From: Malacoraja senta
Lineage: Eukaryota
Length of the DNA stretch: 64,000 nucleotides
Direction: 5' to 3'
Assembly: GCA_038087875.1 (NCBI GenBank)
Contig: CM075988.1
Coordinates: forward strand, 27,654,001-27,718,000
Below the pieces are notes generated by a model that was given only the letters and a program-made list of their open reading frames with translations, made no database searches and was not told where the DNA came from. This document shows positions 1,097 through 55,275 of the stretch, in pieces. Position numbers and translations under genes: made by a program. Position 1 is the first letter of the stretch. Each line of letters opens with the position of its first letter.

Positions 1097-4000
1097 TTTT
1101 TTAATTTTTATTTTTCATTAATTCTTTTATTAGAAGTATTGTACAGTACAGTGATCTCAAACAAACATAAAATTATACATTTCTTGTACCACTTCTTATT
1201 TTAAACTTTAATAAGAAAAAGGATAGAAAGAGTTAGCAAAGATAGTAAGTGAGTGATTGAAAGAGTGGTCCAGGAACAGCCATAGGGACCTAAACCACAA
1301 GAAAGAGTTAAACAAAAGAGAAAAACCAAAAGAAGGAAAAATAAAAAAAAAGTAAGATAAGACAAGATAAAAGGGATGTACCTACTTCATATCTTTACAC
1401 ACCCCTCACCAGGTCCTGAAACCATTTATTATCAACATTTTGTTGCACCCTATATTTGTAATAAGTCGGTAAATGGAGACCAAATCTTTTGGAAATGGTC
1501 TGGTTTACTTGCTAAGAGGAATCTCATATCTTGTAGGTGTAACAGTTCCGACATATTAGAAATCCACATTTTTGTCGTTGGCGGGGAGCGTTTTTCCAAA
1601 ATTTCAGTATAATTTTTTTTGCCGTTATTAAGCCATAATTAAGAAAGCTCCTTTGAAACGAAGTCAGCTCCAAACTGGCTTCGATTGTTCAAAAAATGAT
1701 CAGTTCTGCATTCGGTTTCAGTTTTATTTTAAATAATTTCGTGAAAATGTCAAAGATTTCATTCCAAATTTTTGAATTTTAATACAAAAAACAAAAGAAT
1801 GTGCTATATTTGCTTCTTGGGTTAGACATTTATCACAGATAGAAGAGACATTTGGGTAAAATTTACTTATTTTAGCTTTTGAATAGTATAATCTATGTAA
1901 GATTTTGAATTGAATTAGAATGTGTCTTACGTTAATCGAGCATTTATGCACATATAACAAGTGTTTATCCCAACTCTCTTTCGAGATTTTTATAGCTAGT
2001 TCTTGTTCCCAATCTCTTCTAATCCTATCAGATGATGGTATTTCTATATTTAGGATGGTATTATACAGGTATGATATTATATTAGTTGATTCCGCTTTTA
2101 TATTCATTGTCTCGTCTAATGGGTCTGGAGACATATTTTTTGATATTCTTGTGTATATTTTTTCAAATAGTCACGTATTTGAAAATATTTAAAATATTGA
2201 TTACTACTCAAGTTGTATTTAAGTTGTAGTTGGTGAAATGTTAAAAAACCTCCATTATCATACATATCTCCAAACGTTTTAATTCCTAATCTATCCCAGT
2301 GTGTAAACGATTTATCTATCGTAGAAGGTTTAAACGAAGGATTATTCATTATAGGTGAAAGAAGCGATAGATTTCTTAATTTTAAAGTTAATTTTATTTA
2401 TTTCCAAATTCTAATTGTACTATGGATAATTGGATTTTTACTATATATTGTATTCTTCAATTTTGTTGGTGAGAGAAGGATCGCTCCTATATTAAAAGGG
2501 GAACAATCTTCTCTCTCCATTACTATCCAATCCACCTGCTGGGCCGAGTTGTCCAGCAGGTGAATCATATTTTTGACATTTGCGGCCCAGTAATAATACA
2601 AACAAATTAGGGAGTGATAATCCGCCAAATTCTTTAGGTTTGCACAAATGTCTTCTTTGAATTCTATGGGATTTATAGTCCCATATAAAATTTGTAACAT
2701 CAGCATCCAGTTTAAAACTTGACTGGAATAGATATAGAATTTGTGTTAAAAAAAAATCATTTTTATAGCATTTATTCGGCCTATTAGAGACATCGGGAGA
2801 GTTTTCCAAAATTTAATCAGTATGTTTAGATTATTGAGTAAGGGCATATAGTTTGCATTAAATAAAGATTTATATTTTCTAGTAATTTCAAATCCCAAAT
2901 ATTTGAATTTTTCTGAAGCGATTTTAAAAGGGAATTTTAACAGGTGTGTTGGGTCTTGAGGTTTTATCGTCATAATCACTTTTATTCCAATTTATTCTAT
3001 ATCCTGAAAAGGATCCAAATTCCTCTATTAGATTTAATATATTTGGTATACTGATTTATGATTTTGTAATATATAATAGTACATCATCTGCATATAATGA
3101 TATTTTATTATTTGAGTATTTTGTATTATAACCATGGATGTTCGGATGTATTCTAATACTTTCCGCTAACGGTTCTATTATAAGAGCAAATAGAGGTGAT
3201 AATGAACATCCCTGTCTATTTCCCCTTGATAATTGAAATTTCGGGGACAACATATTATTAGTTAATATTCTGGCAGTAGGCCTGTCATATAATAATTTTA
3301 CCCAAGCGATAAAATTCTCTCCCATTTGAAATTTTTGCAATACTTTAACAAGGTAATCCCATTCCACTTGATCGAATGCTTTTTCTGCGTCCAATGAAAT
3401 AATTGATAAGTCTTGTTCTTCGGTTTTATATGAGTGCATTATATTAAACAGACGTCTCAGATTATTGCATGAGTATCTATTGGGTATAAACCCCATTTGA
3501 TCCACATTTATTAATTTACTAACATATTCACTTAATCTTCTAGCTAATGTTTTCACTAATATTTTTTGATCTGTATTTAACAGCGCAATAGCTCTATAAG
3601 AACCCGGGTCTTCTAAATCTTTATCTTTTTTAGGTATAAGTGTAATCGTTGATTCAGCTAGTGTTTCTGGAAGTGTATGTTCTTTAAAAGCATATGTATA
3701 CATTTTATGTAACCGTGGTGTAATTATCTCGTAGAATCTTTTATAAAATTCATTACTAAAACCACCTGGTCCTGGTGTTTTTCTATTCTTTAATGAATTT
3801 ATTGTTTCTTCTATTTCCTTAATTGAGATTTGTGCACCTAATTCCTCTTGTTCCATCAAATTATGTTTTGGGAGATTACAATTATCCAAGAACTCTATAA
3901 CTTTAGTACTATCTGCTAACGCTTTAGATGTATATAAATTTTGATAAAATTGAGCGAATCTTTTATTAATATCCTTAGGTAGTGTTAACAATTCCCCTTT

Positions 4001-5028
4001 ATCTGATTTAATCTTTAAAATCGTATGATCTTTTTCCCGTTTTTTCAGTTGTCGGGCCAAAAGTTTGTGTGGTTTATCCCCAAATTCAAAATTTTCCTGT
4101 TTTGTAATTTGAAATAATCTTATAACATTTGCTGATAATATTTTATTTTATTTAAATTTCAATATTGTTATTTTATTATGTTTATCTATAGTTGGCTCTT
4201 TAGCGTTATCTAAATCCAATTGTCTAATTCGTTCTTCTAACTGCCTTTGTTCATTCTTATTCTTTTTGTTTAAAAAAGCTTGGTATGAGATTATAGATCC
4301 TCTAATAAATGCTTTGAAAGATTCCCATAGTAAGGTTGGTGAGATCTCTGGGGTATCATTAGTCTTGAAAAAAAGTTCCATCTGTTGTTTTAGATATATT
4401 TCCCCTTGTGGATCATTTAGGATTTGAGGATTAAACCTCCAAAACGATTAATTTAAAAAAAAAAAGGTAACGGGGAGTGATCAGAAATTGTACTATTGTG
4501 GTATTTTGGGTTCAGTGTATAGGGAATTAATTTTGTATCCACTAGGAAATAGTCGATACGTGAATAAGTTTCGTGTACCATTGAATAAAACGAGTATTCC
4601 CTTCCAACAGGGTTAGCGATCCCCCAGACATCTGTTATATTTGTATTTTTTATGTATATATTTAAGATTTCCCTGGTTTTAGATTTTGTATTACCCCTGT
4701 TCTGTTGTGAAGATTTATCCAAGTATGGATCTAAAACACAGTTAAAGTCTCCCCCAATTATCACATTTTGATAATTGAACTCTGAAATTATATTCAGGAT
4801 TTTATTAAAGAATTGGGGATTATCAAAATTAGGCGCATAAATATTTACCAAGGTAATTGGAGTAGCATGAATCTCTCCGGTAACTATGAGGTATCTCCCT
4901 TCCTTATCTATTATGATATTCTTTGATTTAAATGGTATACCTTTGCGAATAATAATTGCTGTGCCTCTAGATTTGGAAATATATGAAGATTGGTATGTTT
5001 GGCCTAACCAATTTGCCTTCAATCTAGT
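1097..5028 (-). mobile_element. 5'-truncated L1-clade LINE with frameshifted ORF2 (APE endonuclease, RT, Cys-rich C-terminus)
   Basis: ORF pieces 4453-5091 (VNIYAPN, GGDFN, YSRIDYF, SDH), 3056-4060 (SLDAEKAFD, RQGCSLSP, YADD) and 1724-2134 (CDKC...H...C); T-rich tail at ~1097; TSD TGAACACAATATTCT at 1082-1096 and 5029-5043. Confidence 0.95.
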
Positions 5029-5251
5029 TGAACACAATATTCTAAATGCGATCTCACCAATGTCTAATACAACTGCAACATGACCTCCCAACTTCTATAC
5101 TCAATACTCTGACTGATGAAGGCCAAAGTGCCAAAAGCCTTTTTGACCACCTTATCTACCTGCGACTCGACCTTCATGGAACCATGCACTTGTGCTCCTA
5201 GATCCCTCTGCTCTACAACACTACCTCAGAGGCCTCCCATTTACTGTGTAA
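5029..5251 (-). mobile_element. CR1-type LINE fragment (right part)
   Basis: Continues the 561-1096 CR1 across the TSD. Confidence 0.85.
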
Positions 5252-5743
5252 GCACATGGTTTTGACTGCTTGTATTGCACATTTTCCTGAATGTGGCCAG
5301 CCAGACAGCAATAAGGTTTAGTATTTCAAATTTGTTGGTTTTTGCAAATGCACTCACTACAGCAGATTTCAACGGTGCAATAAAACAATATCTTATTTTT
5401 AGTTTTTTATGAAATTCAAGAAGCTTGTCATATTAAGATTGCATTAGAATTTGCTTTGGGGAATGGTTATTTTTGTTGCTACTCTTAGTTTGCTGATATG
5501 TCTTAAATTTTGAATTGGCGTTATAAACTGTAGAAATCTACAGAAATTGCAACACCTAATATATGTGGCTCAAATTTTTCATACGGCTCAATAGCATGGA
5601 TCTAAATAAGCTTCTGTCAAAATAGACATTAATTCTGTCTCCCGGGCACATGTAGCCCAGACATTTGCAGGATGCGTAGAGTTTATTCCCAGCACTAAAG
5701 TGGGACGCCTTGCATTTCACTGTAGTGAATTCTGTATGCATTA

Positions 5744-6046
5744 AGGGCCTGTACGTTATTCACGAATTCTCCTTATTCACGAATTCTCCCGCGTTTTCAA
5801 ACTCGCAGAATGTTCGTAACGAGGCCTTAGGAGTCCGTGGATATATCGTAGCGACTCGTTATGCCAGCCGTAGGTACTCGGGGCTATTTTTTTTACTCAA
5901 GGACATTTTTCATCATGCTGAAAAAACGTCCCGACTTACCTGATGCCCCGAGTACCTACGAGCTATTTGAGGTTTTTCAGGCGAGTGCCCTCGAGCTTGA
6001 AGGTCGAAGACAGTTGCTGAAAAGTCGCGTTAGTGGGACAGGCCCT
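5744..6046. mobile_element. PIF/Harbinger-type MITE
   Basis: Termini AGGGCCTGT...AGTGGGACAGGCCCT; TTA on both sides (5741-5743, 6047-6049); left TIR partly lost. Confidence 0.8.
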
Positions 6047-7062
6047 TTAGGAGGAGAGAATGACAATAGTATTAATGTACAAATCATGGTAAAGTGTGAC
6101 GTGGAATGCTTGCTGCATTGTATTATTCGTTTGCGGTTATTTCTTCAGCGAATCTGACTAGCCGATTAGAATTGTGCATTAATGGCTCAGAATTTGTTGG
6201 TAAATGCTGGATTTTCCAAATGGTACCTTTGGCATTTACTCTGTTTAAATGCCATTAAGTCCTGGATTTCTGTTCACGTGTCATGAAATATATAATCACC
6301 AAATTTTACATGTCGAATACAGTGCCCACCTGTGCCATGTGTGGGGAAATCTCAAAACTGACGTTAGTGTATTGGCCCTCAGAGTCTGTGCAAGATCTGT
6401 TGCCCCAGGTTTAGTGATACTTTTGTTGCAGTGGAGAAAGTTACTTTCCACGTTATTTTAATTTTTGTTTAAGTTTTCAGTTATTTGTGTGCAGAGCTCA
6501 TTTTAATATTTTAAATTTTACTTTTACGTTCTGGGTTTGAAGATGGTCAAAGCTTTTGTGGGTGTTTCAAATTTGTGTTCTTGAAAAATCTGCTGCATTA
6601 TGATGTTGGATTTCAGGATAATTTGGACCAGCAAAACAGCCCTTTCGCCATGCTCTTGAGTGGATGTGACCCATTTGTGGCTTTTATGTCTTCAAATAGG
6701 AGGATATTGGGTTTAAATCTTACTCCAGAGTTGAGCATAACACCTCAGGTTAACATTTGAATGAGGGCTGCTGCTAAGTTCCTGATTGTGCTCTGCCATT
6801 AAACATGGTGTGAAGTCCAATGCAAAGAAGCATGCTGAGATGTTCCCATCATGTAAACTAGAACAGCTACTGTGGAATCTTATTCCAGATTAGATTTCTG
6901 AACCCATTGATTTGAATAGGCATATTATGGCTAAGAGCATAAAAGGTTAGAGCAGGTTGTTGCAATTTTAATTTTAATTTTGTTATTGCCTCAATTTTTT
7001 CGATAATTTAAATGACATAACATTTTATGACTTTTCATGTTTTTGAATGTTAAGGACCTTAA

Positions 7063-7319
7063 AGGGCCTGTCCCACTTGGCGAGTTTTTTCGGCGACTGC
7101 CGGCGTCATATCAGTGTCGCCAAAAGATTTTGAACATTTCAAAATCCAGCGGCGACAAAAAAAATGTTGCGACACTTGAAAAAACACCGCGCGTCATACG
7201 TCATCATGCCGCGTCAACGTAGCGTCATGCCGCATCACACTGCGAATTTTTCGGTGACCTGATACGTCAGTCAATGATGCCGGCAGTCGGCGAAAAAATC
7301 GCCAAGTGGGACAGGCCCT
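7063..7319. mobile_element. PIF/Harbinger-type MITE
   Basis: TIR AGGGCCTGTCCCACTTGGCGA / TCGCCAAGTGGGACAGGCCCT; TAA TSD (7060-7062, 7320-7322). Confidence 0.9.
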
Positions 7320-7382
7320 TAAGACTCTTTAAAAGGAACACTGTTTTGACAGAAGGCAAGAGGTTGGCAGCATGACTTTGCT

Positions 7383-7692
7383 ATAGGTGCTCCCCAGGTT
7401 AGGACAGCCCGACTAATGTACATCACATACATAAGAACAAGTGTTGGGAGACTGAGAGGATGAATTTGTTGGCTGCTGGGGGTCTGCAGGCATCTTCTGC
7501 CATATGGGAACACTGCTTGCAGCAATATCCAACTGACTTGAGTTAAAAGTGCTGGTATAACTACACATTGTCCTTGGTTAGCCTATATTTTTACATATAA
7601 TGGCAGGGTGGTCAGATTTGTGACTTACAAACTGTTCCGGTTATGAACAGTTCTCGGGCAAGGAACACTGTCATAACCTGTGGAGGACCTGC
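7383..7692. mobile_element. Decayed Tigger/pogo-like non-autonomous element
   Basis: Ends resemble degraded Tigger TIRs (taggtgctccccaggttaggac ... tcataacctgtggaggacctgca). Confidence 0.4.
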
Positions 7693-7899
7693 ACCTGTTT
7701 CTGGAGGAGATTTACTGGCAGAGTTTATTCTGTATGCCCAGGTCACTTGAAGATGATAGTTGAAGTAAGAGTGTTACACAGGGCAAAGCATTGCTTGGCT
7801 TTGAGATATCCGGCTACATGGTTGGTAAAATAGATTTGGACTTGTTATGTTTGAGGCTGCAGGGAACTTAAGTGGTATGGACAACGGATCTTTGGCAAT

Positions 7900-8110
7900 A
7901 TCTGGTCCTCAAATTGAAGCCATTCTGTTCTCTAAGGTGGATACAATAATATTTTTGATAAATAGCAGAAGGGTGTTTTCTGTGTTATCCTGACTAATCT
8001 GAGCCAGCATCACTAAAATACCTGCCGCTTGTGAAGAGGGCAAATTGGCAACTATACCTCATTGGCTGTAAATGTGGTGAATATTGTAAAAGGTGCTATA
8101 TGAATAGAAC
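7900..8110 (+). mobile_element. Old Deu-domain SINE fragment
   Basis: Degraded similarity to the Deu domain and its tail (aggtggatac..., catcactaaaa, cattggctgtaaa, aaaggtgctatat). Confidence 0.5.
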
Positions 8111-8198
8111 TATGTAATACACTTTGAGAGGAACTGAATTAAAAAATGACAACATGATGGTTACGTATAAATTGCACATCTGACAACTGTTAAATAGC

Positions 8199-8310
8199 AT
8201 ATTTATTTTGAAGAAGGTCTGAAGAAGGGTTTCGGCCCGAAACGTTGCCTATTTCCTTCGCTCCATAGATGCTGCCTCACCCGCTGTGTTTCTCCAGCAT
8301 TTTTGTCTAC
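8199..8310 (+). mobile_element. Solo Penelope terminal (pLTR-derived) cassette with 12-bp TSD
   Basis: CTGTTAAATAGC at 8187-8198 and 8311-8322; same cassette ends the GIY-YIG-bearing fragments elsewhere in the window. Confidence 0.85.
8215..8250 (+). ncRNA. Minimal type I hammerhead ribozyme motif
   Basis: AGGU-CUGAAGA-A-GGGU(UUCG)GCCC-GAAAC-GUU-GCCU: both core boxes, helix II with UUCG loop, 4-bp helix I, palindromic AACGUU in place of helix III. Activity is not shown by sequence. Confidence 0.75.
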
Positions 8311-9249
8311 CTGTTAAATAGCTAATGACTTCAGCAAGCTTCTTTAATACGCAGTGTTTAATTCTAGCATTGTCACAAATGTAATATAGGTTGATTAATA
8401 ACTGCAATATCCTGTCAGTGCCTTAACAATAGTGAATTATGGTTCATGTTGTTAAAATAATCATAGTGCTTTATTTGAATTGTTTTAATTTATATTTGCA
8501 TTATATTTATTTTGATCGCTACAGATTGGGAGAATAAGTTCTTTGATGCAGTGACCAGTTCTATTGTGATTATAATATGACACGGGAAAAGAGCTTGAGT
8601 TCAATGAAAGGAAGAAAGTTAAAATAGCAATATAAAAATAGAACATAATATATATATTTATTATATTATATATATATATATATATATATAGGGAATAAAA
8701 AGAGAACTTTGAGAAAGTAGTTGGCAATTTCTCATTGTAGACTTAAGATCACAGTTACAGATAACAGCAAATATGCATAAGATGAACCTTCAGTAGACCT
8801 TTTAATCAGATTTCCTTGGCATTATGCTATTTACCATTTTTGTTACAGAAAAAATTACCTTCATATGGGAACACCAATTTTCACTTCACACCAAAGAATG
8901 AGATAAAATGTAAATTTCCAAATAATTGCAATTTAGCTATTTTTAAATAATGAAAGTATTTTTGGAGATGGCAAACTGAATTAATAGACATAAGTTTCCT
9001 TCGTTGCTGAAGCAAAAATAGTTTATAACTGCACCCCCCTGTCCTCATTCATTTTTCTCAAAGTCAAGAATTTTCTACACACTTTTCTTTGCCCTATATT
9101 TCTGTTACTTTTGGGAACTTGCCTGAAGTAAAGTGCATAAATAAAATTGCAGTCATTTTTGTAGTTGTTCGGATTAGCATCGAAGTTAGATATAAAAGTT
9201 GCAAAATAAAAAAAATATGTTGTAAATATTTATATCTTGGGACACTCTT

Positions 9250-12384: not shown

Positions 12385-13100
12385 AAAAAGGACAAAGTGC
12401 TCGAGTAACTGGCGGTGGTGGTGGTGGGGGGGGGGGTGTGGGGAAGAAAGCTAGATGAGAGATAGGGAAACAGGACAAAGCCTGGCAAGTGTTAGATGAA
12501 AGATAGACACTTCTGGAGAGAAGGAATGGGTGAGGTTTCGGGTTGAGACCCTTATTCAGATTGATGAAGAAGTGTTAGATGGATACAGGTGACGAGGGTT
12601 TTGATAGGTTGGACAAAGGCCAGAGATGAAAAGACTGGTGAGAAAGAGATAGAAAGGTTGTGAATTGTGAAACCTGAGGAAGGAATGTAGGTGGAACGGG
12701 AAGAAGAGGGGAGAAATGGGTGCAAATCGAGGTGGGAGGAGAGAAGTGTGGGGGGGGGGACATGAAAAGTTGTCTTAAATTGTAGAATTCACTGTTCATA
12801 CCTTTTGGGTTATAAGCTAGCTAAGTGGAATATGAGGTGCAGATCCTCTACTTTGCATTGGCCTCACTTTGGCAATGGAGAAGGCCCAGGGCAGGAAGGT
12901 CAGTATGGGATGAGAAGAGGAGTTAAAATGGTTAGCAACCGGGAGGTGCGCTAGGCCTTGGCGAACTGAGCACGTGTTTGCCGAGTCTATGCTTGGTCTC
13001 ACTGATGTAAAATGGGTCGCATTGTGAACACCAGAGACAGATGAGGTCAAGGAGGTGGGCATGAACCTCTGTCTCACCTGGATTGCGAAGAGGCACATCT
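12385..13100 (-). mobile_element. Penelope-like element 3' fragment (degenerate GIY-YIG endonuclease, 3' UTR)
   Basis: Translation includes SVRQGLAHLPVANHFNSSSH; contains an extra terminal cassette at 12499-12569 flanked by AAGTGTTAGATG. Confidence 0.8.
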
Positions 13101-14429: not shown

Positions 14430-15530
14430 GTTTCTCTGCCCACTCATCTCTTCCCCTATCGAACCACTTCCTCTGCAACCCTAGGAATTGTAACATCTTT
14501 CCCTACACCATCTTCCAGGGACCGAAACAGACCTCCAGGTAAGATAGATGTAGACCCCTCTGTGAGTATTTGGTTTGCCAAGCACCTGTGCTTTTTCCAC
14601 CGTGGCCACCTTCAGTTCCCAGTTGCAAGGTATTTTAATGCCTTTTCTCATTCCAATAATGTTGTCTGACCTTGGCCACCTCCACAGCCAGGTTAAGTTC
14701 AAAAATTGACTAGTGGTACAGCACCTCATATTCTGTCTGGGCAATCCCCAACCTGATGGAATGACCATTCAATTCTTCAATTTCAGGTTATCTGCTTCCC
14801 TTCTGATTGGGTGAACATTGGGGAACATTAGAGGAAGATGACTGACTTTGGTGCCTTCCCTCACAGTGGCTAACTTTGATTCTGCTGTGTGGGGATGTTT
14901 TATGTTGAACTCTATCGTGTGTTGTGTTCTTTATTTTTATTGTATGGCTGTATGGTGACCACACATTTCACTGTGCCAACTGGCACATGTGACAAATAAA
15001 TGTATCTTGTATCTTCTGTCCCTTTCACTCTCCATCCGATTCACCCAGATTCTCTCACACAATCCTTCTCCCCAGTCCTCTAACAGCCAGTTTCTTTCCT
15101 CTCTCCCATTTATTCCACCTGCTCATTACCCATACATCAATCACACTGGGTTCCTAGCTCTTCCCCACGGTTGCTATTGGCTCACCATCGCTCCCTTATT
15201 TCGTTCCACTAACTTTTTTACCAGATTTCATAATCTGCAGCTTTGTTTTTTGTCGCCTCATCGTTTCCAGCCTCTTTCGCTATCACTGGTCTTACCAACA
15301 TCATCTGACCCTTCAGCCAATCAACTGCTCTTCTACATTTACCCATCGTTTGCTAGCTCTTGCCCCACCCCTCCCTGTTATCGCTTTAATTGGCTATCTC
15401 CCCTCTAATCTTTCAGTCTACATCTCAACATGAAAAGTTAACTGTCCATTTCGCTCCACAAACACTGCCTGGCCTGTTGAGTTCCTCCAGCAGTGTTTTT
15501 TGTGTCAAATTCCCCATTTACAGTCCCCTA
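14430..15530 (+). mobile_element. Penelope-like element 3' fragment with decayed terminal cassette
   Basis: GIY-YIG C-terminal remnants (cagcacctcatattctgtctgggc...ggaatgaccattcaattc), pyrimidine-rich UTR, terminal cassette at ~15415-15525. Confidence 0.7.
14815..15015 (+). mobile_element. SINE-like 3' fragment nested in Penelope
   Basis: tgccttccctcacagtg ... tgacaaataaa + tatcttgtatctt tail, same family as 10471-11149. Confidence 0.65.
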
Positions 15531-21586: not shown

Positions 21587-22385
21587 GGGGGGGGTGAGAG
21601 AGGGGGGGGGGTGAGAGAGGGGGGGGTGAGAGAGGGGGGGGGGTGAGAGAGGGGGGGGGGTGAGAGAGGGGGGGGGTGAGAGAGGGGGGGGGGTGAGAGA
21701 GGGGGGGTGAGAGAGGGGGGGGGTGAGAGAGGGGGGGGGGTGAGAGAGGGGGGGGTGAGAGAGGGGGGGGGGTGAGAGAGGGGGGGGGTGAGAGAGGGGG
21801 GGGGGTGAGAGAGGGGGGGGGTGAGAGAGGGGGGGGGGTGAGAGAGGGGGGGGGTGAGAGAGGGGGGGGTGAGAGAGGGGGGGGTGAGAGAGGGGGGGGG
21901 TGAGAGAGGGGGGGGGGGTGAGAGAGGGGGGGGTGAGAGAGGGGGGGGGTGAGAGAGGGGGGGGGTGAGAGAGGGGGGGGTGAGAGAGGGGGGGGGTGAG
22001 AGAGGGGGGGGGGTGAGAGAGGGGGGGTGAGAGAGGGGGGGTGAGAGAGAGGGGGGGTGAGAGAGGGGGGGGGTGAGAGAGGGGGGGGGTGAGAGAGGGG
22101 GGGGTGAGAGAGGGGGGGGTGAGAGAGGGGGGGGGGGGGTGAGAGAGGGGGGGGGTGAGAGAGAGGGGGTGGGGTGAGAGAGAGGGGGGGGGGTGAGAGA
22201 GAGGGGGGGGGTGAGAGAGAGGGGGGGGGGTGAGAGAGAGGGGGGGGGGTGAGAGAGAGGGGGGGGGTGAGAGAGGGGGGGGGGGTGAGAGAGGGGGGGG
22301 GGGTGAGAGAGGGGGGGGGGTGAGAGAGGGGGAGGGGGGTGAGAGAGGGGGGGGGTGAGAGAGGGGGGGGGGGTGAGAGAGGGGG
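21587..22385. repeat. G-rich minisatellite, (G)n-TGAGAGA units, ~800 bp
   Basis: Directly visible tandem array with variable G-run length. Confidence 0.97.
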
Positions 22386-23305: not shown

Positions 23306-24149
<844 letters not shown>

Positions 24150-27350: not shown

Positions 27351-27647
27351 TCGATGAGCTGACATCGACTTGATGGACTGAATGGCCCCCAATATTTGTC
27401 ATGAGGAAATTACAAATATTCGTCTGTGCGATTATACTAAATTGAAAGATGAGCTTATGAAAGAGGAGTAATATTGTCTAACTGACGAAGCCAGAATACA
27501 AATTTTGAAATCTTTCCAAATTTAAATATAAAAATTGGCAATTTTTGTTGTGCCACTTAATTTTAATTGAAAACCTTTAATTGATTATTCATCTGCAATC
27601 AAGTGAATCAAATTAGCCAACTAATTGCAGCCAAATAAGGGGGTTCT

Positions 27648-27775
27648 GATTAAGGGTTCCGACCCAAAACATCGTCTATCAATGTTCTCCAGGCACGCTG
27701 CCTGACCCGCTGAATTACTCCAGTATTTTGTAACTATTTTTTGGTATAAACCAGTATCTTCAGTTCCTTGTTATG
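27648..27775 (+). mobile_element. Solo Penelope terminal cassette, decayed hammerhead motif
   Basis: ctgattaagggttccgacccaaaacatc; flanked by ATAAGGGGGTTCT / ATAAGGAGGTTCT. Confidence 0.75.
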
Positions 27776-28848
27776 ATAAGGAGGTTCTTTTTGTTGTATT
27801 TTGCTATTTCTTTTCATCTGCCTAATCTTTTACATAAACACTGATATTCCAGTAATCAAGATTTGGTGAACTCCAGAGAATAGTTCAAAGTGCATAATGA
27901 CTTCATGTTGCAAGTAGGTTAATAATTATTAATACACATTTAGGGTATACCCAAAGTAGTGGCACTGAATGGCAATTGTAAACTCATGGTGCATATTGTT
28001 GACTACCATCACGACCTGATGGCTTTGTTTATCACAAAGATTAGCATAGGGATACCCACTCTGGGGATTTATATTAAGATCTTGTGAACCATTAGGGACT
28101 TTATGACTATCTGGTAGCATCATGGTTACCATTGCTAGTTTTATTCCAATTTTATTTATTTAACTGATTGCAAATTCCTCTCATGCCACAGCATGGTTTG
28201 AACTTGTGTCTCCAGAGCTCTTGCGTGGATTCTAGGATTGTTAGAACAAATAAGCATTATGCTAATGTGATTCTGAGTCATCTTTGGCTGTGAGGGCTCA
28301 AAGAGTACCAATCATTCCCTTGCAGCCCTAGTCAGCTTTGTCCCCACGTTTTAACTACTCAAACAGGAGTAAGCAATGGTATTAAGTTAAAATAGGTCAG
28401 ATGCACTATCAACTGAGCAAATCATGTTGCACAGAGTATCAAATTACCTTAAAGAGTTTCCGCTGAAAGATGGCGAAATTAGAAATTTAAATTCCATCTG
28501 CATCGTTGTGTGTGTTTGGTCTGCATTTCTGTAGGAACTTGTAACTGCCTGCACAAGTTGGTGCTTTGCCGGGGAATTAATGCTTTGAATGTTCCAGCTA
28601 CTTAATGTCATAGAAAAAAAACTTTTTTGGGAAAAAAAACAAATACTAGACTAAGTGGGACCCATTGGGTCCAATGTTCACACGGGAGGGCTGGTCCCCC
28701 AACGCAATATTCCACCTCTCCACCAATTCCAATATTGGTGGCCAGTGTAGGGGGGGGGGGCTATCTGGAGCGCTAGTATGGGTGTTGTGGGATGAAGGGA
28801 CTGGTTTCCAGAGGGCTAGTATGGACATTGTGGGCCGAATGGATTCTT

Positions 28849-29135
28849 GGGCTGGCAGCTCAGTGACTCAGGCCTGGTGGGCTGACAGATCAGTCACTTG
28901 GGCCTGGTGGGCTGGCAGCTCAGCCACTTGGGCCTGGTGGGCTGGCAGCTCAGTCACTGGGGCCTGGTGGGCTGGCAGCTCAGTCACTCGGGCCTGGTGG
29001 GCTGGCAGCTCAGTCACTCTGGCCTGTTGGGCTGGCAGGTCAGTCACTCGGGCCTGGTGGGCTGGCAGCTCAGTCACTCGGGCCTGGTGGGCTGGCAGCT
29101 CAGTCACTCAGGGCTGGTGGGCTGGCAGCTCAGAA
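28849..29135. repeat. 30-bp minisatellite, ~9.5 copies
   Basis: Unit ggcctggtgggctggcagctcagtcactcg. Confidence 0.95.
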
Positions 29136-29494: not shown

Positions 29495-29900
29495 TTCAGG
29501 CAGGCTAAACAACTCCATTTCATTTCAATTTCAAGCACAGGGCAGGCCAAACAACTCATTTCCATTTCTATTTCAAGCACAGGGCAGGGCAAACAATTCA
29601 TTTCCATTTCAATTTCAAGTACAGGGCAGGCCAAACAACTAATTTCCATTTCAATTTCAAGCACAGGGCAGGCCAAACAACTAATTTCCATTTCCAATTT
29701 CAAGCACAGGGCAGGCCAAACAACTCATTTCATTTTCATTTCATTTCCATTTCCATTGCAGTTTCAAGCACAGGGCAGGCCACACAGCTTATTGCATTTT
29801 CATTTCATTTCCATTTCCATTGCAGTTTCAAGCACAGGGCAGGCCAAACAGCTCATTGCATTTTCATTTCATTTCCATTTCCATTGCAGTTTCAAGAACA
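29495..29900. repeat. Minisatellite with ~42-bp unit lengthening to ~65 bp
   Basis: Unit tttcaagcacagggcaggccaaacaactcatttccatttcaa with internal CATTT expansion. Confidence 0.92.
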
Positions 29901-31640
29901 GGAAGAAAAAATAATTTTTGGGAAGAAAAAATAATTAAGAATGTGAACGAGTCAATTATTCCATTCCACAAGGAGCTATAAAGTTGTGCTTTGTGAACAA
30001 TAATTTATTGCAAGTACATTGCAGACTCACAGTTCAGTTGATTCACAGCTTAGAATCACAGTCGTGGCCTCTCCCTCGCGATCTACCAGAGTGACTGACT
30101 CGCGTCCAGGCATCCGGGGTTTTATAGTCTCTCCCCCCCCCAGGAAGGGGCGTTATCTTCATCATGGTGATTGACAGGCGAGAGGACCAATCAGCCGATC
30201 TCAAGACTTTTTAAACACTCATAACTTTTTTATTTTTCATCGATCGGAAAAATCCTCGGGGCTGCCTCGGCAGAGGAGGACTGAGTAAGATGGCCAAAAA
30301 TCATAGCGATATAGGGTAGCGTTTTTCTAAAATCAATATACAGCGCAGACAGGCAGTGGTCAAGATGAGACTTTTAGTTATATAGATGATACTTGTGACA
30401 GAGCTATGAATAAAACTATTTCGTGTATAAGATATTATGTTTACTAAAATGTTGCTTTCAATTGTTCATGCTTCTGTTTAGTACCAATATGATTTCATAC
30501 TTGGCATGTAAATTGATACTTGAAGATTTAGCTGCAATAAATGAAACATAAGGATTCAGTTTCTATGCAAAAATGAGAGTAACATTTGGGAAGAAAAAAT
30601 AATTAAGAATGTGAACGAGTCAATTATACCATTCCACAAGGAGCTATAAAATTGTACTTTGTGAACAATAATTTGAAATGTTTTACACTTTCTGCTGATG
30701 ACTGAAGAACACACGATGCCCCTTGTTAATGTTAAGGATGAGAACAAAGCATGAAAACCAAGAATAATTTGGTATTATATTTGTACCAAAATGTTTTGGT
30801 GATTTATCAATGTGAGGAATTGTACTCTAAGCCATTCACAGGTAACAAATGGATTCTGATTTTACAGATGTCCATAAGTCGATTGTTAGAAACCACACAA
30901 ATATCATAATATATCATTTTAAAAGATCAAATTTACAATAAAAGTCAGATATAGGATTTTAAAATGTTGTTCAACATTAAAACACAGCATATAGAATTTA
31001 AAATATTTTGATTTTTATGTTTGGACTCAAAATTAAGGTACAGTAAGCCCTTGTTATAACTGACCATACAATTTTAACCACCGTATTGGGGACAGTTATG
31101 AATCGACTTTTGAAGTGAATCATTTCTGTAAACTTAATGTGTGCTTTCCTATCAGCTCTCTGATTAAGAAAATGATATTTTCCAACTTCTGTTTCATACT
31201 GTACGCTTTCCCATATGCTTGTACTTGGCAAGGCTGTGGTCGATACTCAAAACACCCGACTCCGGCTCCTTGATTTCTTGTGTATCCGACTCCGACCCTG
31301 ACCCCTAGGTATAATAATTCTAAATCTGCTATGATGACATTACACAAGATGGCATTTCATAAGTACCACATGAATCATCAGGCTACCTTTTAAACCATGT
31401 ACTTAAAGTTTTGAGTCTAATGGTTGTAGCTATGCTATTGTGGCCTTTTAAAAAAATGTTTATGGAAAAAACCCATAATTCATTATGCTAAAAGAAAAAT
31501 AAATTAATGCAAGGACTATAACAAAATTTAAATTCCATTGAATTAAATAAAAATTATTTAAAAATTCTCAAGTGCAATAGAAATTAAAAGTAAACGCATA
31601 GGTAGTTAAATTTGCTATAAAAGTACATACCTAAAATCTA

Positions 31641-32606: not shown

Positions 32607-33990
32607 TGAGCAGGGATGACAGGGAATTATAGACCAGTTAGCCTGACATCGGTGGTGGGGAAGATGCTGAAATCAATTATTAAAGAAGTAATAACGGCGC
32701 ATTTGGATAGTAGTGTAAGGATTGGTCCAAGACAGCATGGATTTATGAAGGGGAGATCCTGCTTGACTAATCTTCTGGAATTTTTTGAGGATGTGACAAG
32801 TAAAATGGATGAAGGAGAGCCAGTGGTTGTGGTGTATCTGGACTTTCAGGAAGCCTTTGATAAGGACCCACACAGGAGATTAGTGGGCAAAATTAGAGCA
32901 CATGGTATTGGGGGTAGGGTATTGACATTGATAGAGAATTGGTTGGCAGACAGGAAACCGAAACAAGTCCCTGTCAGAATGGCAGGCACTGGTGAGTGGA
33001 GTGCCGCAAAGCTTGGTGCTGGGGCCGCAACTATTTACAATATTTATTAATGATTTAGATGATGGAATTAAAAGTAACACTAGCAAATTTGCAGATGACA
33101 CAACGCTTGGTGGCAGTGTGAACTGTGAAGAGGATGCTAGAAGTTTTCAGGGTAACTTGGACAGGTTGAGTGAGTGGGCAGATGCATGGCAGATGCAGTA
33201 TAATGTAGATAAATGTGAGGTGATCCACTATGGCGGGCAAGAACAATTATCTCAATGGTGTCAGATTAGGAAAAAGGGAAGAGCAATGAGACCTGGGTGT
33301 CCTTGTACACCAGTCACTGAAAGTAAACATGCAGGGACAGCAGGCAGTGAAGAAAGCTGATGGCATGTTGGCCTTCATAACGAAAGGATTTGCGTATAGG
33401 AGTAAAGAGATCCTTCTGCAGTTGTACAGGGCCCTAGTGAGACCGCACCTGGAATATTGTGTACAGTTTTGGTCTCCTAATTTTAGGAAGGATATCCTTG
33501 CTATTGAGGCAGTGCAGCGCAAGTTCACGAGGTTAATCCCCGGGATGGTGGGACTGTCATGTGAGGAAAGACTGGGCTTGTATTCACTGAAATTTAGGAT
33601 GAGAGTGGATCTTATAGAAACACATAAAATTAGAAAAGGATTGGACAAGCTAGATGCAGGAAAAATATTCCCAATGTTGGGAGAGTCCAGAACCAGGGGC
33701 CACAGTCTAAGAATAAAGGGGAGTCCATTTAAAACTGAGATGAGAAAAAAATGTTTTCACCCAGCGAGTTGTGAATTTGTGGAATTCTCTGCCACAGGAG
33801 GCTAATTCACTGGATGAATTTAAAAGAGAGTTAGATAGAGCTCTTGGGGCTAGCGGAATCATGGGATATGGGGAGAAGGCAGGCACGGGTTACTGATTGT
33901 GGATCAGCCATGATCACAATGAATGGCGGTGCTGGCTCGAAAGGCCGAATGGCCTCTGCCTGCACCTATTTTCAATGTTTCTATTTTTAC
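32607..33990 (+). mobile_element. CR1 LINE, 5'-truncated, frameshifted RT
   Basis: GNYRPVSLTSVVGK, QHGFMKGRSCLTNL, KFADDT, RPHLEYCVQFW; CR1 3' hairpin and tail. Confidence 0.93.
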
Positions 33991-44964: not shown

Positions 44965-47115
44965 GTCAGTGAAGGATGTTCCAGATTATATCATGATATT
45001 GATCAACTGGGAAAGTAAGTAAGGGAATAGCAGATGGAATCCAACACAGACAAGTGTGGCTTATTGCATTTTTTTAATGAAGTTAAACCAGGCCAGAACA
45101 TACAATGTGAATGGCAGGGCCCTCGTGAGTGTGTTGACCAAAGAGATCGAGTAGTACATGTACAACTTTTCCTTCCAGGCATCAAAAAATATCAGTTCAT
45201 TTAAAGTGACAACACAGATGGAAGGCAAATGACATTACCTTCATTGGCAACATTTGGAGGATTGTGTGCAGTTCTGGTCGTGACACTTTAGAAAGAATGT
45301 GATTAAGCTAGAGATGGTAGATACATAGAAAATAGGTGCAGGAGTAGGCCATTCGGCCCTTCGAGCCTGCACCGCCATTCAATATGATCATGGCTGATCA
45401 TCCAACTCAGTATCCCGTACCTGCCTTCTCTCCATACCCCCTGATCCCTTTAGCCACAAGGGCCACATCTAACTCCCTCTTAAATATAGCCAATGAACTG
45501 GCCTCAACTACCCTCTGTGGCAGAGAGTTCCAGAGATTCACCACTCTCTGTGTGAAAATGTTTTTCCTCATCTCGGTCTTAAAGGATTTCCCCCTTATCC
45601 TTAAGCTGTGACCCCTTGTCCTGGACTTCCCCAACATCGTGAACAATCTTCCTGCATCTAGCCTGTCCAACCCCATAAGAATTTTGTACGTTTCTATAAG
45701 ATCCCCTCTCAATCTCCTAAATTCTAGCGAGTATAAGCCAAGTCTATCCAGTCTTTCTTCATATGAAAGTCCTGACATCCCAGGAATCAGTCTGGTGAAC
45801 CTTATCTGCACTCCCTCTATGGCTATAATGTCCTTCCTCAGATTTGGAGACCAAAACTGGACGCAATACTCCAGGTGTGGTCTCACCAAGACCCTGTACA
45901 ACTGCAGTAGAACCTCCCTGCTCCTATACTCAAATCCTCTTGCTATGAAGGCCAACATACCATTCGCTTTCTTCACTGCCTGCTGCACCTGCATGCCTAC
46001 TTTCAATGACTGGTGTACCATGACACCCAGGTCTCGCTGCATCTCCCCATTTCCTAATCGGCCACCATTTAGATAATAGTCTGGCTTCCCGTTTTTGCCA
46101 CCAAAGTGGATAACCTCACATTTATCCACATTATACTGCATCTGCCAAACATTTGCCCACTCACCCAGCCTATCCAAGTCACCTTGCAGTCTCCTAGCAT
46201 CCTCCTCACAGCTAACACTGCCCCCCAGCTTAGTGTCATCCGCAAACTTGGAGATGTTGCTTTCAATTCCCTCGTCCAGATCATTAATATAAATTGTAAA
46301 TAGCTGGGGTCCCAGCACTGAGCCTTGCGGTACCCCACTAGTCACTGCCTGCCATTGTGAAAAGGACCCGTTTACTCCTACTCTTTGCTTCCTGTTTGCT
46401 AGCCAGTTCTCTATCCACATCAATACTGAACCCCCAATACCGTGTGATTTAAGTTTGTATCCTAATCTCTTATGTGGTACCTTGTCGAAAGCCTTCTGAA
46501 AGTCCAGATACAACACATCCACTGGTTCTCCCGTATCCACTCTACTAGTTACATCCTCGAAAAATTCTATAAGATTCGTCAGACACGATTTACCTTTCGT
46601 AAATCCATGCTGACTTTGTCCAATGATTTCACCACTTTCCAAATGTGCTGCTATCCCATCTTTAATAACTGACTCTAGCAGTTTCCCCACTACCGATAGA
46701 CTAGTTTTCATAGCAATTATGCGAGGACTGAGTTATAAAGATAGATTGGATAGGATGGGCCTATTTTCGCTGGAGCAAATGATTTATAATAAGAGGCATG
46801 GATGGGGTAAAACATTAGTCTTTTTCCTAGGATAGGGCGTCTGAAACTAGAGAGCATCGGTTTTCGGTGAGGGGAAAGTTTTAAAAGGAATTTCAAGGGC
46901 AAGTTCATACAAAAACAGATATGGAATGAGCTGCCTAAGGAGGTGGTAGAGGCAGATACAATTACAATGTTTAAAAAATACTTGGGTGAGCCGTGGGTTG
47001 GAAAGGTTTAGAGAGGTTTGTGCCAAGCGCAGGCAGATAAGAGTAGCCTAGAAGGGCATCTTGGTTGGCATGAACAATTTGGGTCGAAGGACCTGTTTCC
47101 GTGCTGTATAAATCT
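44965..47115 (+). mobile_element. Old CR1 fragment interrupted by a younger antisense CR1
   Basis: CR1 RT remnants at 44965-45320 resume at ~46700 and end with the 3' motif gaaggacctgtttccgtgctgtat. Confidence 0.75.
45320..46697 (-). mobile_element. Young 5'-truncated CR1 with uninterrupted RT C-terminal ORF
   Basis: ORF 45407-46711 has YLDFQKAFDKV, GVPQGSVLGP, KFADDTK with no stops; intact 3' UTR. Confidence 0.95.
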
Positions 47116-47314: not shown

Positions 47315-47515
47315 AAAAACACAGTGCTGAAGTAACTCATTCAGACATGCAGCATCTCTGGAGAATATGGATAGGTGACTTTTCCGGTTGCAATTCTTCT
47401 TCAGTCTGAATTAATGCTGCCTATCCAAGTTGTCCAGAGATGCTGCCTGATGTGCTGAGTTATTCCACCACTTTGTCTTCTTTTGTAAACCAACATTTGC
47501 AATTCCTTGTGTCTT
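47315..47515. mobile_element. Inverted pair of Penelope terminal cassettes
   Basis: Minus copy 47315-47405 abuts plus copy 47415-47515. Confidence 0.7.
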
Positions 47516-49724: not shown

Positions 49725-50465
49725 ATAGAGAAGACTGCAGATACTGGAGTCTGGAGCAAAAAGATAAACTACTGGAAGATGTCACTGAGCCAGGCAGCAT
49801 CGGTAGAGGCAAAGGACTGGTGAAAGTTTTGGGTTGAGACCCTGTTACAGAACTGAGAATGTAGAGAGAGGATGGCCAGCATAGAGATGCAAGAGAGTGG
49901 GGTGAGACGGAGACTGGAAGAAACACGGTTATATAAATATATAGGTGATGCACAAATGGAATCAGTTAGAGAAGCTCAGCAAGTCTTGATAAAGGTGAAC
50001 TAAAGATGAGGTAACCTGGGTGGACTGTTGGAAGGAAAACGGACAGTGTGGAACCTGATACTGTGAAATTCAATTGGGAGGTTACCCAAGTGGAATATTA
50101 AGTAGTGGTGTTCTTTGAGTCTGAAGAAGGGTCTCATCCATTCTTTCTCTCCAGAGATGCTGCCTGTCCTGCTGTTACTCCAGCTTTTTGTGTCTATCCG
50201 GTTTAAACCAGCATCTGCTGTTCCTTCCTACACATTGTTCTTCTTTGCGTTTGACTTCATTATGGCAGTGGAGAAGACCGGAGACAGACGGGTCAGTATG
50301 GAAAGGGATGTTAAAATGACATGCAAGTGAAAGCTTAAGATGTCTCTTGCGAGATAGTGTAGGTTCCCATTAAAACGGTTTATAGTTGGTCTTGCCTTTG
50401 TATAAGAGGTCGCAAAGCGAGCACTGAATTCAATAGACTAGGTTGGAGGAGGATGAATGTGACGG
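49725..50465 (-). mobile_element. Penelope-like 3' fragment with an antisense cassette nested at 50116-50235
   Basis: Terminal cassette, GIY-YIG remnants; nested copy flanked by TGTTCTT. Confidence 0.7.
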
Positions 50466-50968: not shown

Positions 50969-51061
50969 ACACAAAGGTTTGGAGGAACTGAGTGGGTCAG
51001 GCAGCAGCTGTGGAGGTAGTGGACAGGTGACATTTTAGGTTGGAACCCTTCTTCACACGGG
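50969..51061 (-). mobile_element. Solo Penelope terminal cassette
   Basis: Flanked by TCTCTCTTTATAGCTAA (50952-50968) / TCTCTCCTTACAGCTAA (51062-51078). Confidence 0.75.
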
Positions 51062-51149
51062 TCTCTCCTTACAGCTAATGGCTTCTAATTCAGGCAGCAT
51101 TCTGGTAAACCTCTTCTACAACAATCTAAATGAGAATAAGGAATCGTCT

Positions 51150-51650
51150 AAAAAGGACACAAAGTGATGGAGTAACTCAGCGGGTCAGGCAGCATCTCTG
51201 GAGATCTTAAGTATGTGACATATTGGGTCGGGAGCCTTCAGACTGATTGTCAGGGGGTGGGGAGTAGAAGGTGTGAGATAGGATTGAAGAGTTGCAGGTT
51301 GTGATGCCAGAGGAAGGGATGTAGGAGGAGGGGAGAAATGGTGGGAGTCCAGATGGGGCACAGGGGAGGGAGGTAGGAAGGAATAAAGGGCGGAGGGGGG
51401 AAAGAGGGAGGGGAGTTGGTTGTAAGAAGTTACTGAAAATTGTAGTTCACGCCGTTGGGATGTAAGTTACCCAAAGCAGAGTATGAGGTGCTGTTCCTCT
51501 AGTTTGCGTGTGGACTCACTCTGGCAGGACAGAAGGGGAGATAAAATGATTAGCGAACGGGAGATCCAGTAGGTCTTGGTGCACCAAGCGCAAGTGTTCA
51601 ACTGAACAGTCACTGTGTCTACACTTGGTCTAGCTGATGTATAGTCTACA
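51150..51650 (-). mobile_element. Penelope-like 3' fragment
   Basis: Terminal cassette, purine-rich UTR on plus strand, GIY-YIG end (atgaggtgctgttcctctagtttgcg). Confidence 0.8.
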
Positions 51651-52745: not shown

Positions 52746-53809
52746 AAATAATGTTAAGTTAGAATTGGGAAGGAGGAACTTCGGGAAGTTTATTCTGAAA
52801 GAACGTGGTTCTGAGCAAATTGCTAGATCTGTGGGCTGACAAGTCCCTGGGTTATGATAAATTCCACCTTGGGTTAAAAAGAAATGAGTAATGAGATGAT
52901 CAATGCGTTCAATTTTACCTAATACCCTATATTTAGAAAGACACATTAAAGTGGAAAATAGCAAAAACATCTTTACTCAAAGGTGTCAGCAGAATACAGC
53001 AAAATTGTAGGTTTGTCAGCTTCTGTCATAGGGAAAATATTAAAAGCTATTATTAAAGATGTTGCACAGGGCACTTGGATAAAGTCAAGATAATATGGCA
53101 AAATCCAAATGGTTTTGTTGAAGGCTGTTTGTCCAATTTATTGCAGTTTTTTGAAGAAGTAACGTGTGTGGTGGATATTGGGGAATTAGTAGTTATAGTA
53201 TACTTGCACATTCAGAAGGCATTTCATGAGATGCTTCATCAAAGAATTTTGTATGAAATGAATGCCCATGGTGTAAAGAAGTAACATATTATCCCGGAAG
53301 GAAAGTTGGCTGATTAATTAACAGGAAGCAGAGAACAGTTATAAATGGGTGTACAACTTATTGCAGATGCTAGTATCTGGAGAAAAGAAAGAGAGATGCT
53401 GGAGGAACTCAGTACATCAGACAGCACCTGAGGAGAGAAATGGACAGTTGATGTTTCCGGTTGAGACCTTTCACCTGGACTATAAATGAATATTTTTCTT
53501 TTGTTTTGGTACTGGGGTTAGTACTGGTTCCTCAATTTATAATTTATCTAAATGACTTTCAAGATACTAAAGGAACAATTGCTGAGTTTGTTGACACAAA
53601 GATGATAGTTATGAGGAGTACTTAAGGAAACTGCAGAAGGATATAAAACTTTAGGTGAATCATAAATGGAATATTATGTGAGAAATATAAAATTGTCCAT
53701 TTTGCAGGATTATCTAAATAGTGAGATAGTGTGAAGCCTGGGATGCAGAAGGATCTGGGTGTCCCAGTGGATGCCATGCAAAAGGTGAGTGCAGGAATAA
53801 AAATAGGTA

Positions 53810-54663: not shown

Positions 54664-55069
54664 GTCAGGAAAGCTAACAGATATTTTCAAGCTTGGAGAA
54701 CTGAATATACTGTAACGGTAGGGAGGTCATTCTTCAGCTACATGGACTGCGGTGAAAGTATATTCCAGGCTGATCAGCCACGATAACATTGAATGGCGGT
54801 GCTGGCTCAAAGGGCCGAATGGCCTACTCCTGCACCTATTGTTTATTGCCTACATCTGGAGTACTGCATATATTATATTGGTCTTATTTAAATATTAGGG
54901 AAGCAGTTTGGTAAAGGTTTGGGACACAGAGCTGGAATGGGTTGGTTATCTAATGTGGAATTTTGTACAGGGCAAGCTGTTATCCATTTGAATGCAAAAG
55001 TTAGAGGGGACTTGAATAAAACATACATGATTGATGGATTTTGCATCCATCGTTAAAGCAATGATGCGT

Positions 55070-55275
55070 AGAAAAATAATGCTGGAGTATCTCAGTGGGT
55101 CAGGCAGCATCTCTGGAGGACATGGAAGGTGACGTTTCAGGTCGGCATCATTCTTCAGACCCGACTTGAAACAATGCCTATTTGAAACACGACTCGAAAC
55201 AATGTCCAGAGAAGCTGCTCCAGAACGTTGTTTTTTACTCAAGATTCCCACATCTGCAGTTCCTTACGTCTCTAT
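55070..55275. mobile_element. Inverted pair of Penelope terminal cassettes
   Basis: Minus copy ending gtgacgtttcaggtc...cttcagac, then plus-oriented remnant. Confidence 0.7.

What the first reader, a model, noticed from the sequence alone, without database searches (positions are those of the whole stretch)
8215..8250. Intact-looking minimal hammerhead ribozyme in a solo retro-cassette
Seen: CUGAAGA and GAAAC core boxes, helix II GGGU/GCCC closed by UUCG, helix I AGGU/GCCU, a GUU triplet, and the palindrome AACGUU replacing helix III. Established: Penelope-like elements carry minimal type I hammerheads lacking helix III that are thought to work as dimers through such palindromes. Inference: this is the best-preserved copy here and could self-cleave if transcribed.
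Basis: partly seen in the sequence, partly recalled or inferred. Interest (0 to 1): 0.7.

Follow-up and report, generated by a model that had tools for sequence, protein, structure and literature searches.

The report
Penelope retrotransposon stub with minimal hammerhead
This 112-base insert is one of more than ten thousand near-identical short end-pieces of a Penelope-type jumping gene and carries an already described kind of minimal self-cutting RNA motif, which looks unusually complete here only because bases likely added during insertion lengthen one of its stems, and which is predicted not to cut on its own; it is ordinary.

Summary
The motif is real: all named elements lie at 8215-8250, it passes the published minimal-hammerhead descriptor and is the only descriptor hit in the window. 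It sits in a 112-nt insert with a 12-bp target-site duplication, the leader of a Penelope-like element with RT and GIY-YIG. Its 33-nt core occurs 10,406 times exactly. Core boxes, helix II and the ACGU palindrome hold across subfamilies; helix I does not. The family form has 2 bp (63 of 101 sampled copies; 3 reach 4 or more). This copy's AGGU strand comes from bases added at the 5' junction. A splicing origin was tested and rejected. With its flanks the hammerhead fold has about 4% predicted probability, no partner copy is near, and copy 5' ends do not pile up at the cleavage site (4 of 295). Cleavage was not tested and no RNA run was available. Verdict: a new member of a known kind, most likely an inert passenger. 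The scan reported the same kind of stub in at least five other genomes.

The parts
8187..8198 (+). left copy of 12-bp target-site duplication
   Evidence: only exact repeat of 7 nt or more between the two flanks
8199..8216 (+). 5' junction bases not in the parent at this place; 8209-8217 repeats 8220-8228 and supplies A8215 and G8216 of the helix I 5' strand
   Evidence: parents read C-rich tract + CAG here; head duplications of period 10, 11 and 12 recur genome-wide; in organism B 8204-8216 also matches a 13-nt stretch about 170 nt further down the parent
8217..8310 (+). family-derived cassette: leader of the Penelope-like element from its usual 5' edge to the first of two usual 3' ends
8215..8218 (+). 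helix I 5' strand (only 8217-8218 are family sequence)
8219..8226 (+). core box C3-A9 plus the extra A before helix II
   Evidence: kept in the five clusters of 7 or more copies; extra nucleotide described in PMC4209133
8227..8238 (+). helix II, 4 bp, 4-nt loop
   Evidence: stem kept (last pair U-A or U-G) while the loop varies between subfamilies
8239..8246 (+). GAAA box, ACGU palindrome (dimer helix III, 8242-8245), GUU triplet; predicted cleavage after 8246
   Evidence: triplet GUC in older, GUU in this subfamily
8247..8250 (+). helix I 3' strand
8311..8322 (+). right copy of the 12-bp target-site duplication

Best explanation
The feature is the hammerhead motif in the leader of a Penelope-like retrotransposon, carried in a 112-nt solo copy that likely arose when the element's reverse transcriptase primed inside the first 95 nt of its own uncut RNA and ran off the 5' end, and it is likely an inert passenger at this locus. 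Shown: the insert has a 12-bp target-site duplication; the same sequence is the 5' leader and the 3' end of long copies that encode RT, a Cys linker and GIY-YIG; copies end at two sites about 41 nt apart and start at the front edge of the motif, not at its cleavage site; the family's helix I has 2 bp and this copy's has 4 because of bases at the 5' junction. Inferred: transcription starts at the initiator-like TCAGT just before the core; internal priming (by analogy with the anole element PAc); the junction bases were copied by a re-priming jump of the RT; in the parent the motif would cut only as a dimer of the two leader copies some 4 kb apart and with help from protein; this solo copy lacks a partner and is predicted to misfold.
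For: TSD; 9-17-nt flanking repeats in 17 of the 30 best relatives. Parent: RVT_1 E 3.6e-6 and GIY-YIG E 4.1e-4 on ORF pieces of L215, both under Pfam's cut-off; YIDD and CX4CxxC visible; cassette about 290 nt upstream of the N-terminal query in 23 of 30 loci, many of which are one amplified insertion; ATG about 164 nt after the core's start. Abundance: 10,406 exact 33-mers; 295 profile hits in 799 kb of evenly spaced samples. Ends: 158 of 295 start at -3 to +1 (the profile begins at -3, so long copies count there), 4 of 295 at +29 to +31; 10 of the 30 best relatives carry the 41-nt tail, the PLE signature of PMC11167929. Helix I: 0, 1, 2, 3, 4, 5 contiguous bp in 10, 18, 63, 7, 2, 1 of 101 copies; 940 exact young copies have GG upstream against 10,406 in all. 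Head duplications of several periods, tandem duplications reaching past the motif (542 matches) and a 33-nt array (L218). Folding: helix probabilities 0.04 in the cassette, 0.02 with flanks; active dimer -14.9 against -27.2 kcal/mol for the best dimer of the 36-mer. Papers: min-HHR monomer inactive and dimer weak (PMC4209133); PAc hammerhead needs protein, is dispensable for insertion in vitro, and no reads end at its site (PMC11167929).
Against: No cleavage assay and no RNA data, so inertness and the start site are inferred. The isolated 36-mer does favour the hammerhead fold (helix pair probabilities 0.67-0.92) and this copy passes the descriptor that the family form fails. Thermodynamic folding ignores protein help and tertiary contacts, and it also gives low helix II probabilities (0-0.19) for five other copies, so it may under-call the whole family. 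The cap-G sign is mixed: G before AGTCTG in 27 of 100 tandem rows against 4 A and 3 T (hand count), but A 50, G 35, T 15 in 100 bulk rows (hand count). The insertion is shared with organism B, which allows but does not show retention. No empty site was seen.
Confidence: 0.85

Rival explanations
1. This copy is a working ribozyme: the 4-bp helix I lets it cut as an intermolecular dimer with any of the thousands of sister RNAs when a host transcript runs through it.
For: Core intact, descriptor passed; GUU is listed among cleavable NUH triplets (PMC3138052, passages); partners are abundant in the genome; the insert is present in a second organism and 8207-8236 shows no listed difference there (30 nt at about 3% flank divergence is not significant).
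Against: Competing hairpin 8229-8243 hides the GAAAC box and the best dimer is a mispaired duplex; no loop-loop tertiary contact; published dimers of this class cut weakly (PMC4209133); no host gene was identified (0 Pfam hits other than LINE pieces and one weak DUF in 87 frames).
Confidence: 0.1
2. The cassette is a self-propagating non-LTR retrozyme: it is cut out by its hammerheads, circularised and reverse-transcribed in trans.
For: Non-LTR retrozymes are reported as PLE derivatives, also in one cartilaginous fish (bioRxiv 10.64898/2026.07.22.740005, passages); tandem head duplications exist.
Against: It is a monomer; its ends are the parent's leader ends, not the cleavage site; the sequence continues into the ORF in long copies; junctions in tandem copies are spread over many positions.
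Confidence: 0.04
3. The AGGU strand is made by splicing: an 11-nt exon (CAG|...AAGG|GT) of the 5' leader is joined to the 3' leader with the ORF removed as an intron, switching the ribozyme on.
For: The 11-mer is bounded by a pyrimidine tract + CAG and by GT; an intron end maps to helix I in D. virilis Penelope (PMC4209133); 48 exact 11+11 junctions exist.
Against: Period 11 is a minority: 33 period-10, 17 period-11, 24 period-12 and 26 other in the first 100 of 1,383 rows (hand count); a second, stronger donor near the ATG gave 7 matches, 5 of them chance flanks and 2 from one insertion.
Confidence: 0.03
4. The motif is a chance match.
For: Fold energy is not unusual (z 0.23); no Rfam match.
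Against: 0 of 400 simulations give an equal hit; it lies in a PLE leader and subfamilies keep core, stem and palindrome while the loop changes.
Confidence: 0.01

Closest known systems
Minimal type I hammerheads (min-HHR) of metazoan Penelope-like elements (Cervera and De la Pena 2014, PMC4209133; main text parts 1-2 of 4 and the descriptor passage of one supplement read)
   Same: CUGANGA and GAAANNUH boxes, extra nucleotide before G10.1, G10.1-C11.1 pair, palindromic 15.2-16.2, no helix III, most copies solo
   Different: Family helix I is 2 bp, under the descriptor's minimum of 3 (the paper notes 2 bp for D. virilis); copy number is far above the 4,000-9,000 it gives for coelacanth and frog
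Anolis PAc Poseidon element (Frangieh et al. 2024, PMC11167929; parts 1-2 of 4 read)
   Same: Hammerhead in the leader, two 3' ends 30-40 nt apart, uncut RNA as template
   Different: Here the linker has CX4CxxC (Neptune type by PMC8557442, passages) and the ORF appears to start about 164 nt after the core, not at stem II; nothing tested in vitro
Solo pLTRs with TSD of rotifer Penelope elements (PMC3846280, passages)
   Same: Solo and inverted terminal pieces, optional tail, 8-10-bp TSD
   Different: Much shorter unit that starts at the motif's edge; TSD 9-17 bp
Animal non-LTR retrozymes (bioRxiv 10.64898/2026.07.22.740005; part 1 of 5 and passages read)
   Same: Type I hammerhead in a short non-coding PLE derivative
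   Different: Defined there as tandem units each with a complete motif; this is a monomer whose ends are not set by cleavage

Membership tests
PLE minimal hammerhead (min-HHR) | core boxes CUGANGA (+ optional N10) and GAAANNUH | tested here: met
PLE minimal hammerhead (min-HHR) | helix II 3-7 bp with G10.1-C11.1, loop 3-10 nt | tested here: met
   4 bp, 4-nt loop; kept across subfamilies
PLE minimal hammerhead (min-HHR) | helix I of 3-7 bp, in this copy | tested here: met
   4 bp
PLE minimal hammerhead (min-HHR) | helix I of 3-7 bp, in the family form | tested here: not met
   2 bp in 63 of 101 copies and 23 of 33 core-intact copies; 5 descriptor hits in 799 kb
PLE minimal hammerhead (min-HHR) | palindromic 15.1-16.1 in place of helix III | tested here: met
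   ACGU, majority in the five clusters of 7 or more copies
PLE minimal hammerhead (min-HHR) | self-cleavage as dimer | not testable with these tools
   needs an in vitro assay; predicted energies are unfavourable
EN+ Penelope-like element (parent) | RT followed by C-terminal GIY-YIG | tested here: met
   (both hits under the Pfam cut-off, on broken ORF pieces); motifs
EN+ Penelope-like element (parent) | pseudo-LTR: same sequence at both ends, inverted and tandem forms, optional tail | tested here: met
Neptune clade | CX2-5CxxC linker between RT and EN | tested here: met
   CX4CxxC in L215; definition from PMC8557442 passages
Neptune clade | placement in an RT tree | not tested
   no reference RTs were fetched
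non-LTR retrozyme | two or more tandem units each with a complete hammerhead | tested here: not met
   single unit between TSDs
non-LTR retrozyme | circular RNA intermediate | not testable with these tools
   no RNA run listed
Rfam hammerhead families | covariance-model match | tested here: not met

The most novel reading that the evidence does not exclude
In this family the ribozyme is crippled in its genomic form (2-bp helix I), and telomerase-like re-priming by the Penelope reverse transcriptase at the RNA's 5' end rebuilds it: short head repeats complete helix I in a few per cent of insertions, and longer ones place two motifs 30-45 nt apart, giving hundreds of new dimer-ready ribozymes. 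This would be a visible route by which retrozymes are born from Penelope stubs, and this copy would be one active product.
Probability: 0.12. Interest if true: 0.6.

Novelty: new member of a known kind. Interest (0 to 1): 0.2.

Why it matters
As a single locus it matters little: it is one of more than 10,000 identical cores of a described class. The family-level data have some value: copies begin upstream of the cleavage site and almost never at it, which extends to a second vertebrate element the report that uncut RNA is the template for Penelope insertion, and the family's 2-bp helix I falls below the published search descriptor, so descriptor counts would miss most copies in such genomes. 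It also warns that a solo copy can look like a better ribozyme than its parent through junction bases.

Tried and rejected
Splicing of an 11-nt exon as the source of helix I: rejected. Splicing from the AAG|GTATG site near the ATG to the CAG acceptor: 7 matches, one insertion with true leader homology, and it would still give 2 bp. L215 as a full-length element starting at its upstream cassette: rejected, that cassette is a separate insertion in a satellite; true 5' leaders were found. AAGG upstream as a marker of head duplication: 31 of 40 sampled hits match only those 4 nt and are mostly flank or TSD. Cap-derived G as proof of the start site: inconclusive. Jumps onto a cleaved 3' end as genomic evidence of cleavage: about 16-18 of 100 tandem junctions fall at or next to the site, but TCA microhomology spans it; inconclusive (hand count). 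TATA-like box upstream: 5 of 25 parent-like upstream stretches, no clear signal. Core against spacer conservation among copies, 0.88 against 0.82, is confounded by 5' truncation and subfamily mixture and is not used. Expression: no RNA holder listed. Empty site: none seen; both organisms carry the insert. Host gene: none identified. Rfam: nothing. A constrained dimer fold failed to run, so dimer energies are for the bare hammerhead pairs only and are fair only for the 36-mer. Lunse et al. 2017 on dimer cleavage is not held (seen only as a reference and summary in PMC6765202 passages). One supplement file of PMC4209133 could not be searched and may list cartilaginous fish.

Full report
Observation. 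In 400 Markov simulations of the window 1 hit had both helices of at least 3 bp and none had both of 4 bp. The published RNAmotif descriptor hits the window once, here. Thirteen or so other family copies in the window are 68-85% alike and damaged or truncated. Rfam gives nothing. The bare 36-mer folds as drawn, but not more stably than shuffles.

The cassette. The motif lies in a 112-nt insert, 8199-8310, between two copies of a 12-bp repeat. The genome search returned 1,387 candidates of which 40 were scored; 17 of the 30 fetched have 9-17-nt flanking repeats, and 10 carry a further 41-nt tail. The 33-mer 8218-8250 occurs 10,406 times exactly. A profile finds 295 copies in 799 kb taken at even steps from the six largest contigs, which extrapolates roughly to several hundred thousand. 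Contigs of a second organism span both junctions, so the insertion predates their split; flanks differ by about 3%. An identical copy 23.9 kb upstream belongs to a 23.7-kb block repeated at 99.8% across a 200-N gap, most likely the second haplotype assembled in tandem (inference). That the host is a cartilaginous fish is a recalled resemblance, not tested.

The parent. Long relatives run upstream into a C-rich tract and an ORF with YIDD, a CX4CxxC linker and a GIY-YIG-like end (Pfam RVT_1 E 3.6e-6 and GIY-YIG E 4.1e-4, both under the curated cut-offs). Searching with the N-terminal region, 23 of 30 loci have the cassette about 290 nt upstream on the same strand (many are one amplified insertion, so fewer independent events), and the sequence runs on from the tail to an ATG about 164 nt after the core's first base. 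The cassette is therefore the element's leader, present at both ends as a pseudo-LTR. By the linker it is Neptune-type (PMC8557442, passages); no tree was built.

How solo copies likely form. Starts cluster at the motif's front edge: 158 of 295 at -3 to +1, with the caveat that the profile begins at -3, and 4 of 295 at +29 to +31 around the cleavage site. The commonest loose ends in four sequencing runs also fall before 8217 and behind 8311-8312. Frangieh et al. (PMC11167929, parts 1-2 of 4) show for the anole element that reverse transcription starts at two internal sites that define the tail, that the hammerhead needs protein, that it is dispensable for insertion in vitro and that no reads end at its site. 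By analogy, priming about 94 or 135 nt into an uncut transcript that starts at the initiator-like TCAGT (motif name recalled) gives these stubs. The start site is inferred; the cap-G sign is mixed (27 G, 4 A, 3 T among 100 tandem rows; 35 G, 50 A, 15 T among 100 rows; hand counts).

What is conserved. Clustering 168 of 214 anchored copies (46 dropped as 5'-truncated) on their 3' part gave six groups; the three large older or mixed groups of 33, 57 and 34 copies, the young group of 34 and a group of 7 keep CUGAAGA, the extra A, GGGU/RCCC and the CGU of the palindrome, while the loop varies (CCCG, CUCG, UUCG), the triplet is GUC or GUU, and U-A pairs become U-G in both helices; the group of 7 has a decayed G12 and the group of 3 is degenerate. 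These are one-sided changes; no two-sided compensatory change was seen. The parent has CAGU upstream: 72,942 exact matches with YCAG against 1,201 with AAGG. Contiguous helix I pairs number 0, 1, 2, 3, 4, 5 in 10, 18, 63, 7, 2, 1 of 101 copies; none of 33 core-intact copies reaches 4; 940 young copies have GG upstream against 10,406 (the patterns differ by one base at the 3' end). The family form fails the descriptor's 3-bp minimum; a 2-bp helix I is also described for D. virilis (PMC4209133).

Where this copy's helix I comes from. Bases 8209-8217 repeat 8220-8228. I first suspected splicing, as the 11-mer is bounded by CAG and GT and 48 exact 11+11 junctions exist. The test failed: of the first 100 of 1,383 head repeats, 33 have period 10, 17 period 11, 24 period 12 and 26 other spacers (hand count). 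Longer head duplications (542 matches, spread junctions) and a 33-nt array of about 15 units (L218; the same back-jump is seen at high depth in runs X2-X4) point to re-priming by the RT. A second source is possible: in organism B 8204-8216 matches 13 nt lying about 170 nt further down the parent. Either way the bases are a junction product. A stronger donor near the ATG gave 7 matches, one real insertion.

Would it cut? Not tested. For: intact core; GUU is listed as cleavable (PMC3138052, passages; that it is slower than GUC is recalled); pair probabilities 0.67-0.92 in the bare 36-mer. Against: with flanks the probabilities drop to 0.04 or 0.02 because 8229-8243 forms a hairpin over the GAAAC box, and the best dimer of the 36-mer (-27.2) is a mispaired duplex, well below the double hammerhead (-14.9 kcal/mol); five other copies also fold away from the hammerhead (helix II 0-0.19), so the model may under-call a protein-assisted RNA; the published monomer was inactive and dimers weak (PMC4209133); no same-strand partner lies near; no host gene was found. 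No RNA run was listed, which is no evidence either way.

Comparison and novelty. It works like, and this copy formally qualifies as, a Penelope minimal hammerhead; it is not a retrozyme by the tandem definition (bioRxiv 10.64898/2026.07.22.740005, part 1 of 5 and passages; that study includes one cartilaginous fish). Five literature searches returned no paper on junction repeats completing helix I or on this family; most subscription papers, Lunse et al. 2017 among them, are not held, and one supplement of PMC4209133 could not be searched. PMC6765202, PMC6155905 and PMC3846280 were seen as passages only. The scan's earlier notes describe the same kind of stub in at least five other genomes; they agree with a reading I had recorded before opening them and are not independent support.

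Verdict. Observation confirmed; interpretation partly supported; new member of a known kind; interest 0.2.

Noticed in passing
window -2997 to 20723 against G000:C12:27627103-27650802: A 23.7-kb block, this finding included, is repeated head to tail at 99.8% identity across a 200-N gap; likely a false duplication of haplotypes in the assembly.
   Followed up: partly
L218 (oriented) 5890-6390: About 15 tandem units of a 33-nt piece of the leader (helix II to just past the cleavage site, without the CUGAAGA box) at the inverted 5' junction of a solo copy; the same back-jump 8259 to 8227 appears at high depth in runs X2-X4. Looks like repeated re-priming by the RT.
   Followed up: partly
G000, pattern: 542 exact tandem junctions place a second leader 0-14 nt after a first motif's triplet; 27 of the first 100 have an extra G before AGTCTG, as a copied cap would give.
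   Followed up: partly
L263/L264 (G000:C4:79.90 Mb): One inverted insertion in which the leader, up to the AAG|GTATG site next to the ATG, is joined directly to a second leader at CAG|; fits either a spliced RNA lacking the ORF or a jump on 2-nt microhomology.
   Followed up: partly
L237-L241, L243, L247-L251, L253, L255: Long Penelope copies on many small contigs share up to 1.5 kb of the same non-PLE upstream flank at 94-100%: one insertion amplified inside a larger repeat.
   Followed up: no
window 12514-12566, 15450-15503, 27645-27729, 47349-47478, 49792-49854, 50119-50196, 50980-51203, 53396-53439, 55068-55161, 55749-55841, 60525-60750: Older, damaged copies of the same cassette, some as inverted pairs.
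   Followed up: partly
window 1724-5094, - strand: Broken LINE with endonuclease (PF03372, PF14529) and RT (PF00078, E 8.9e-28) pieces.
   Followed up: no
window 21587-22385, 23309-24149, 28848-29133, 29499-29902: Tandem arrays: 16-17-nt G-rich unit x48, (AC)n of 840 bp, 30-nt unit x9.5, 42- and 64-nt units.
   Followed up: no
window 32648-33983 and 45318-46697: Two inverted copies, about 80% alike, of a 1.3-kb interspersed repeat, probably a LINE 3' part.
   Followed up: no
L215 1210-1905: Two cassettes of the young subfamily lie in or beside one satellite of about 38 nt, one with a clear TSD.
   Followed up: no
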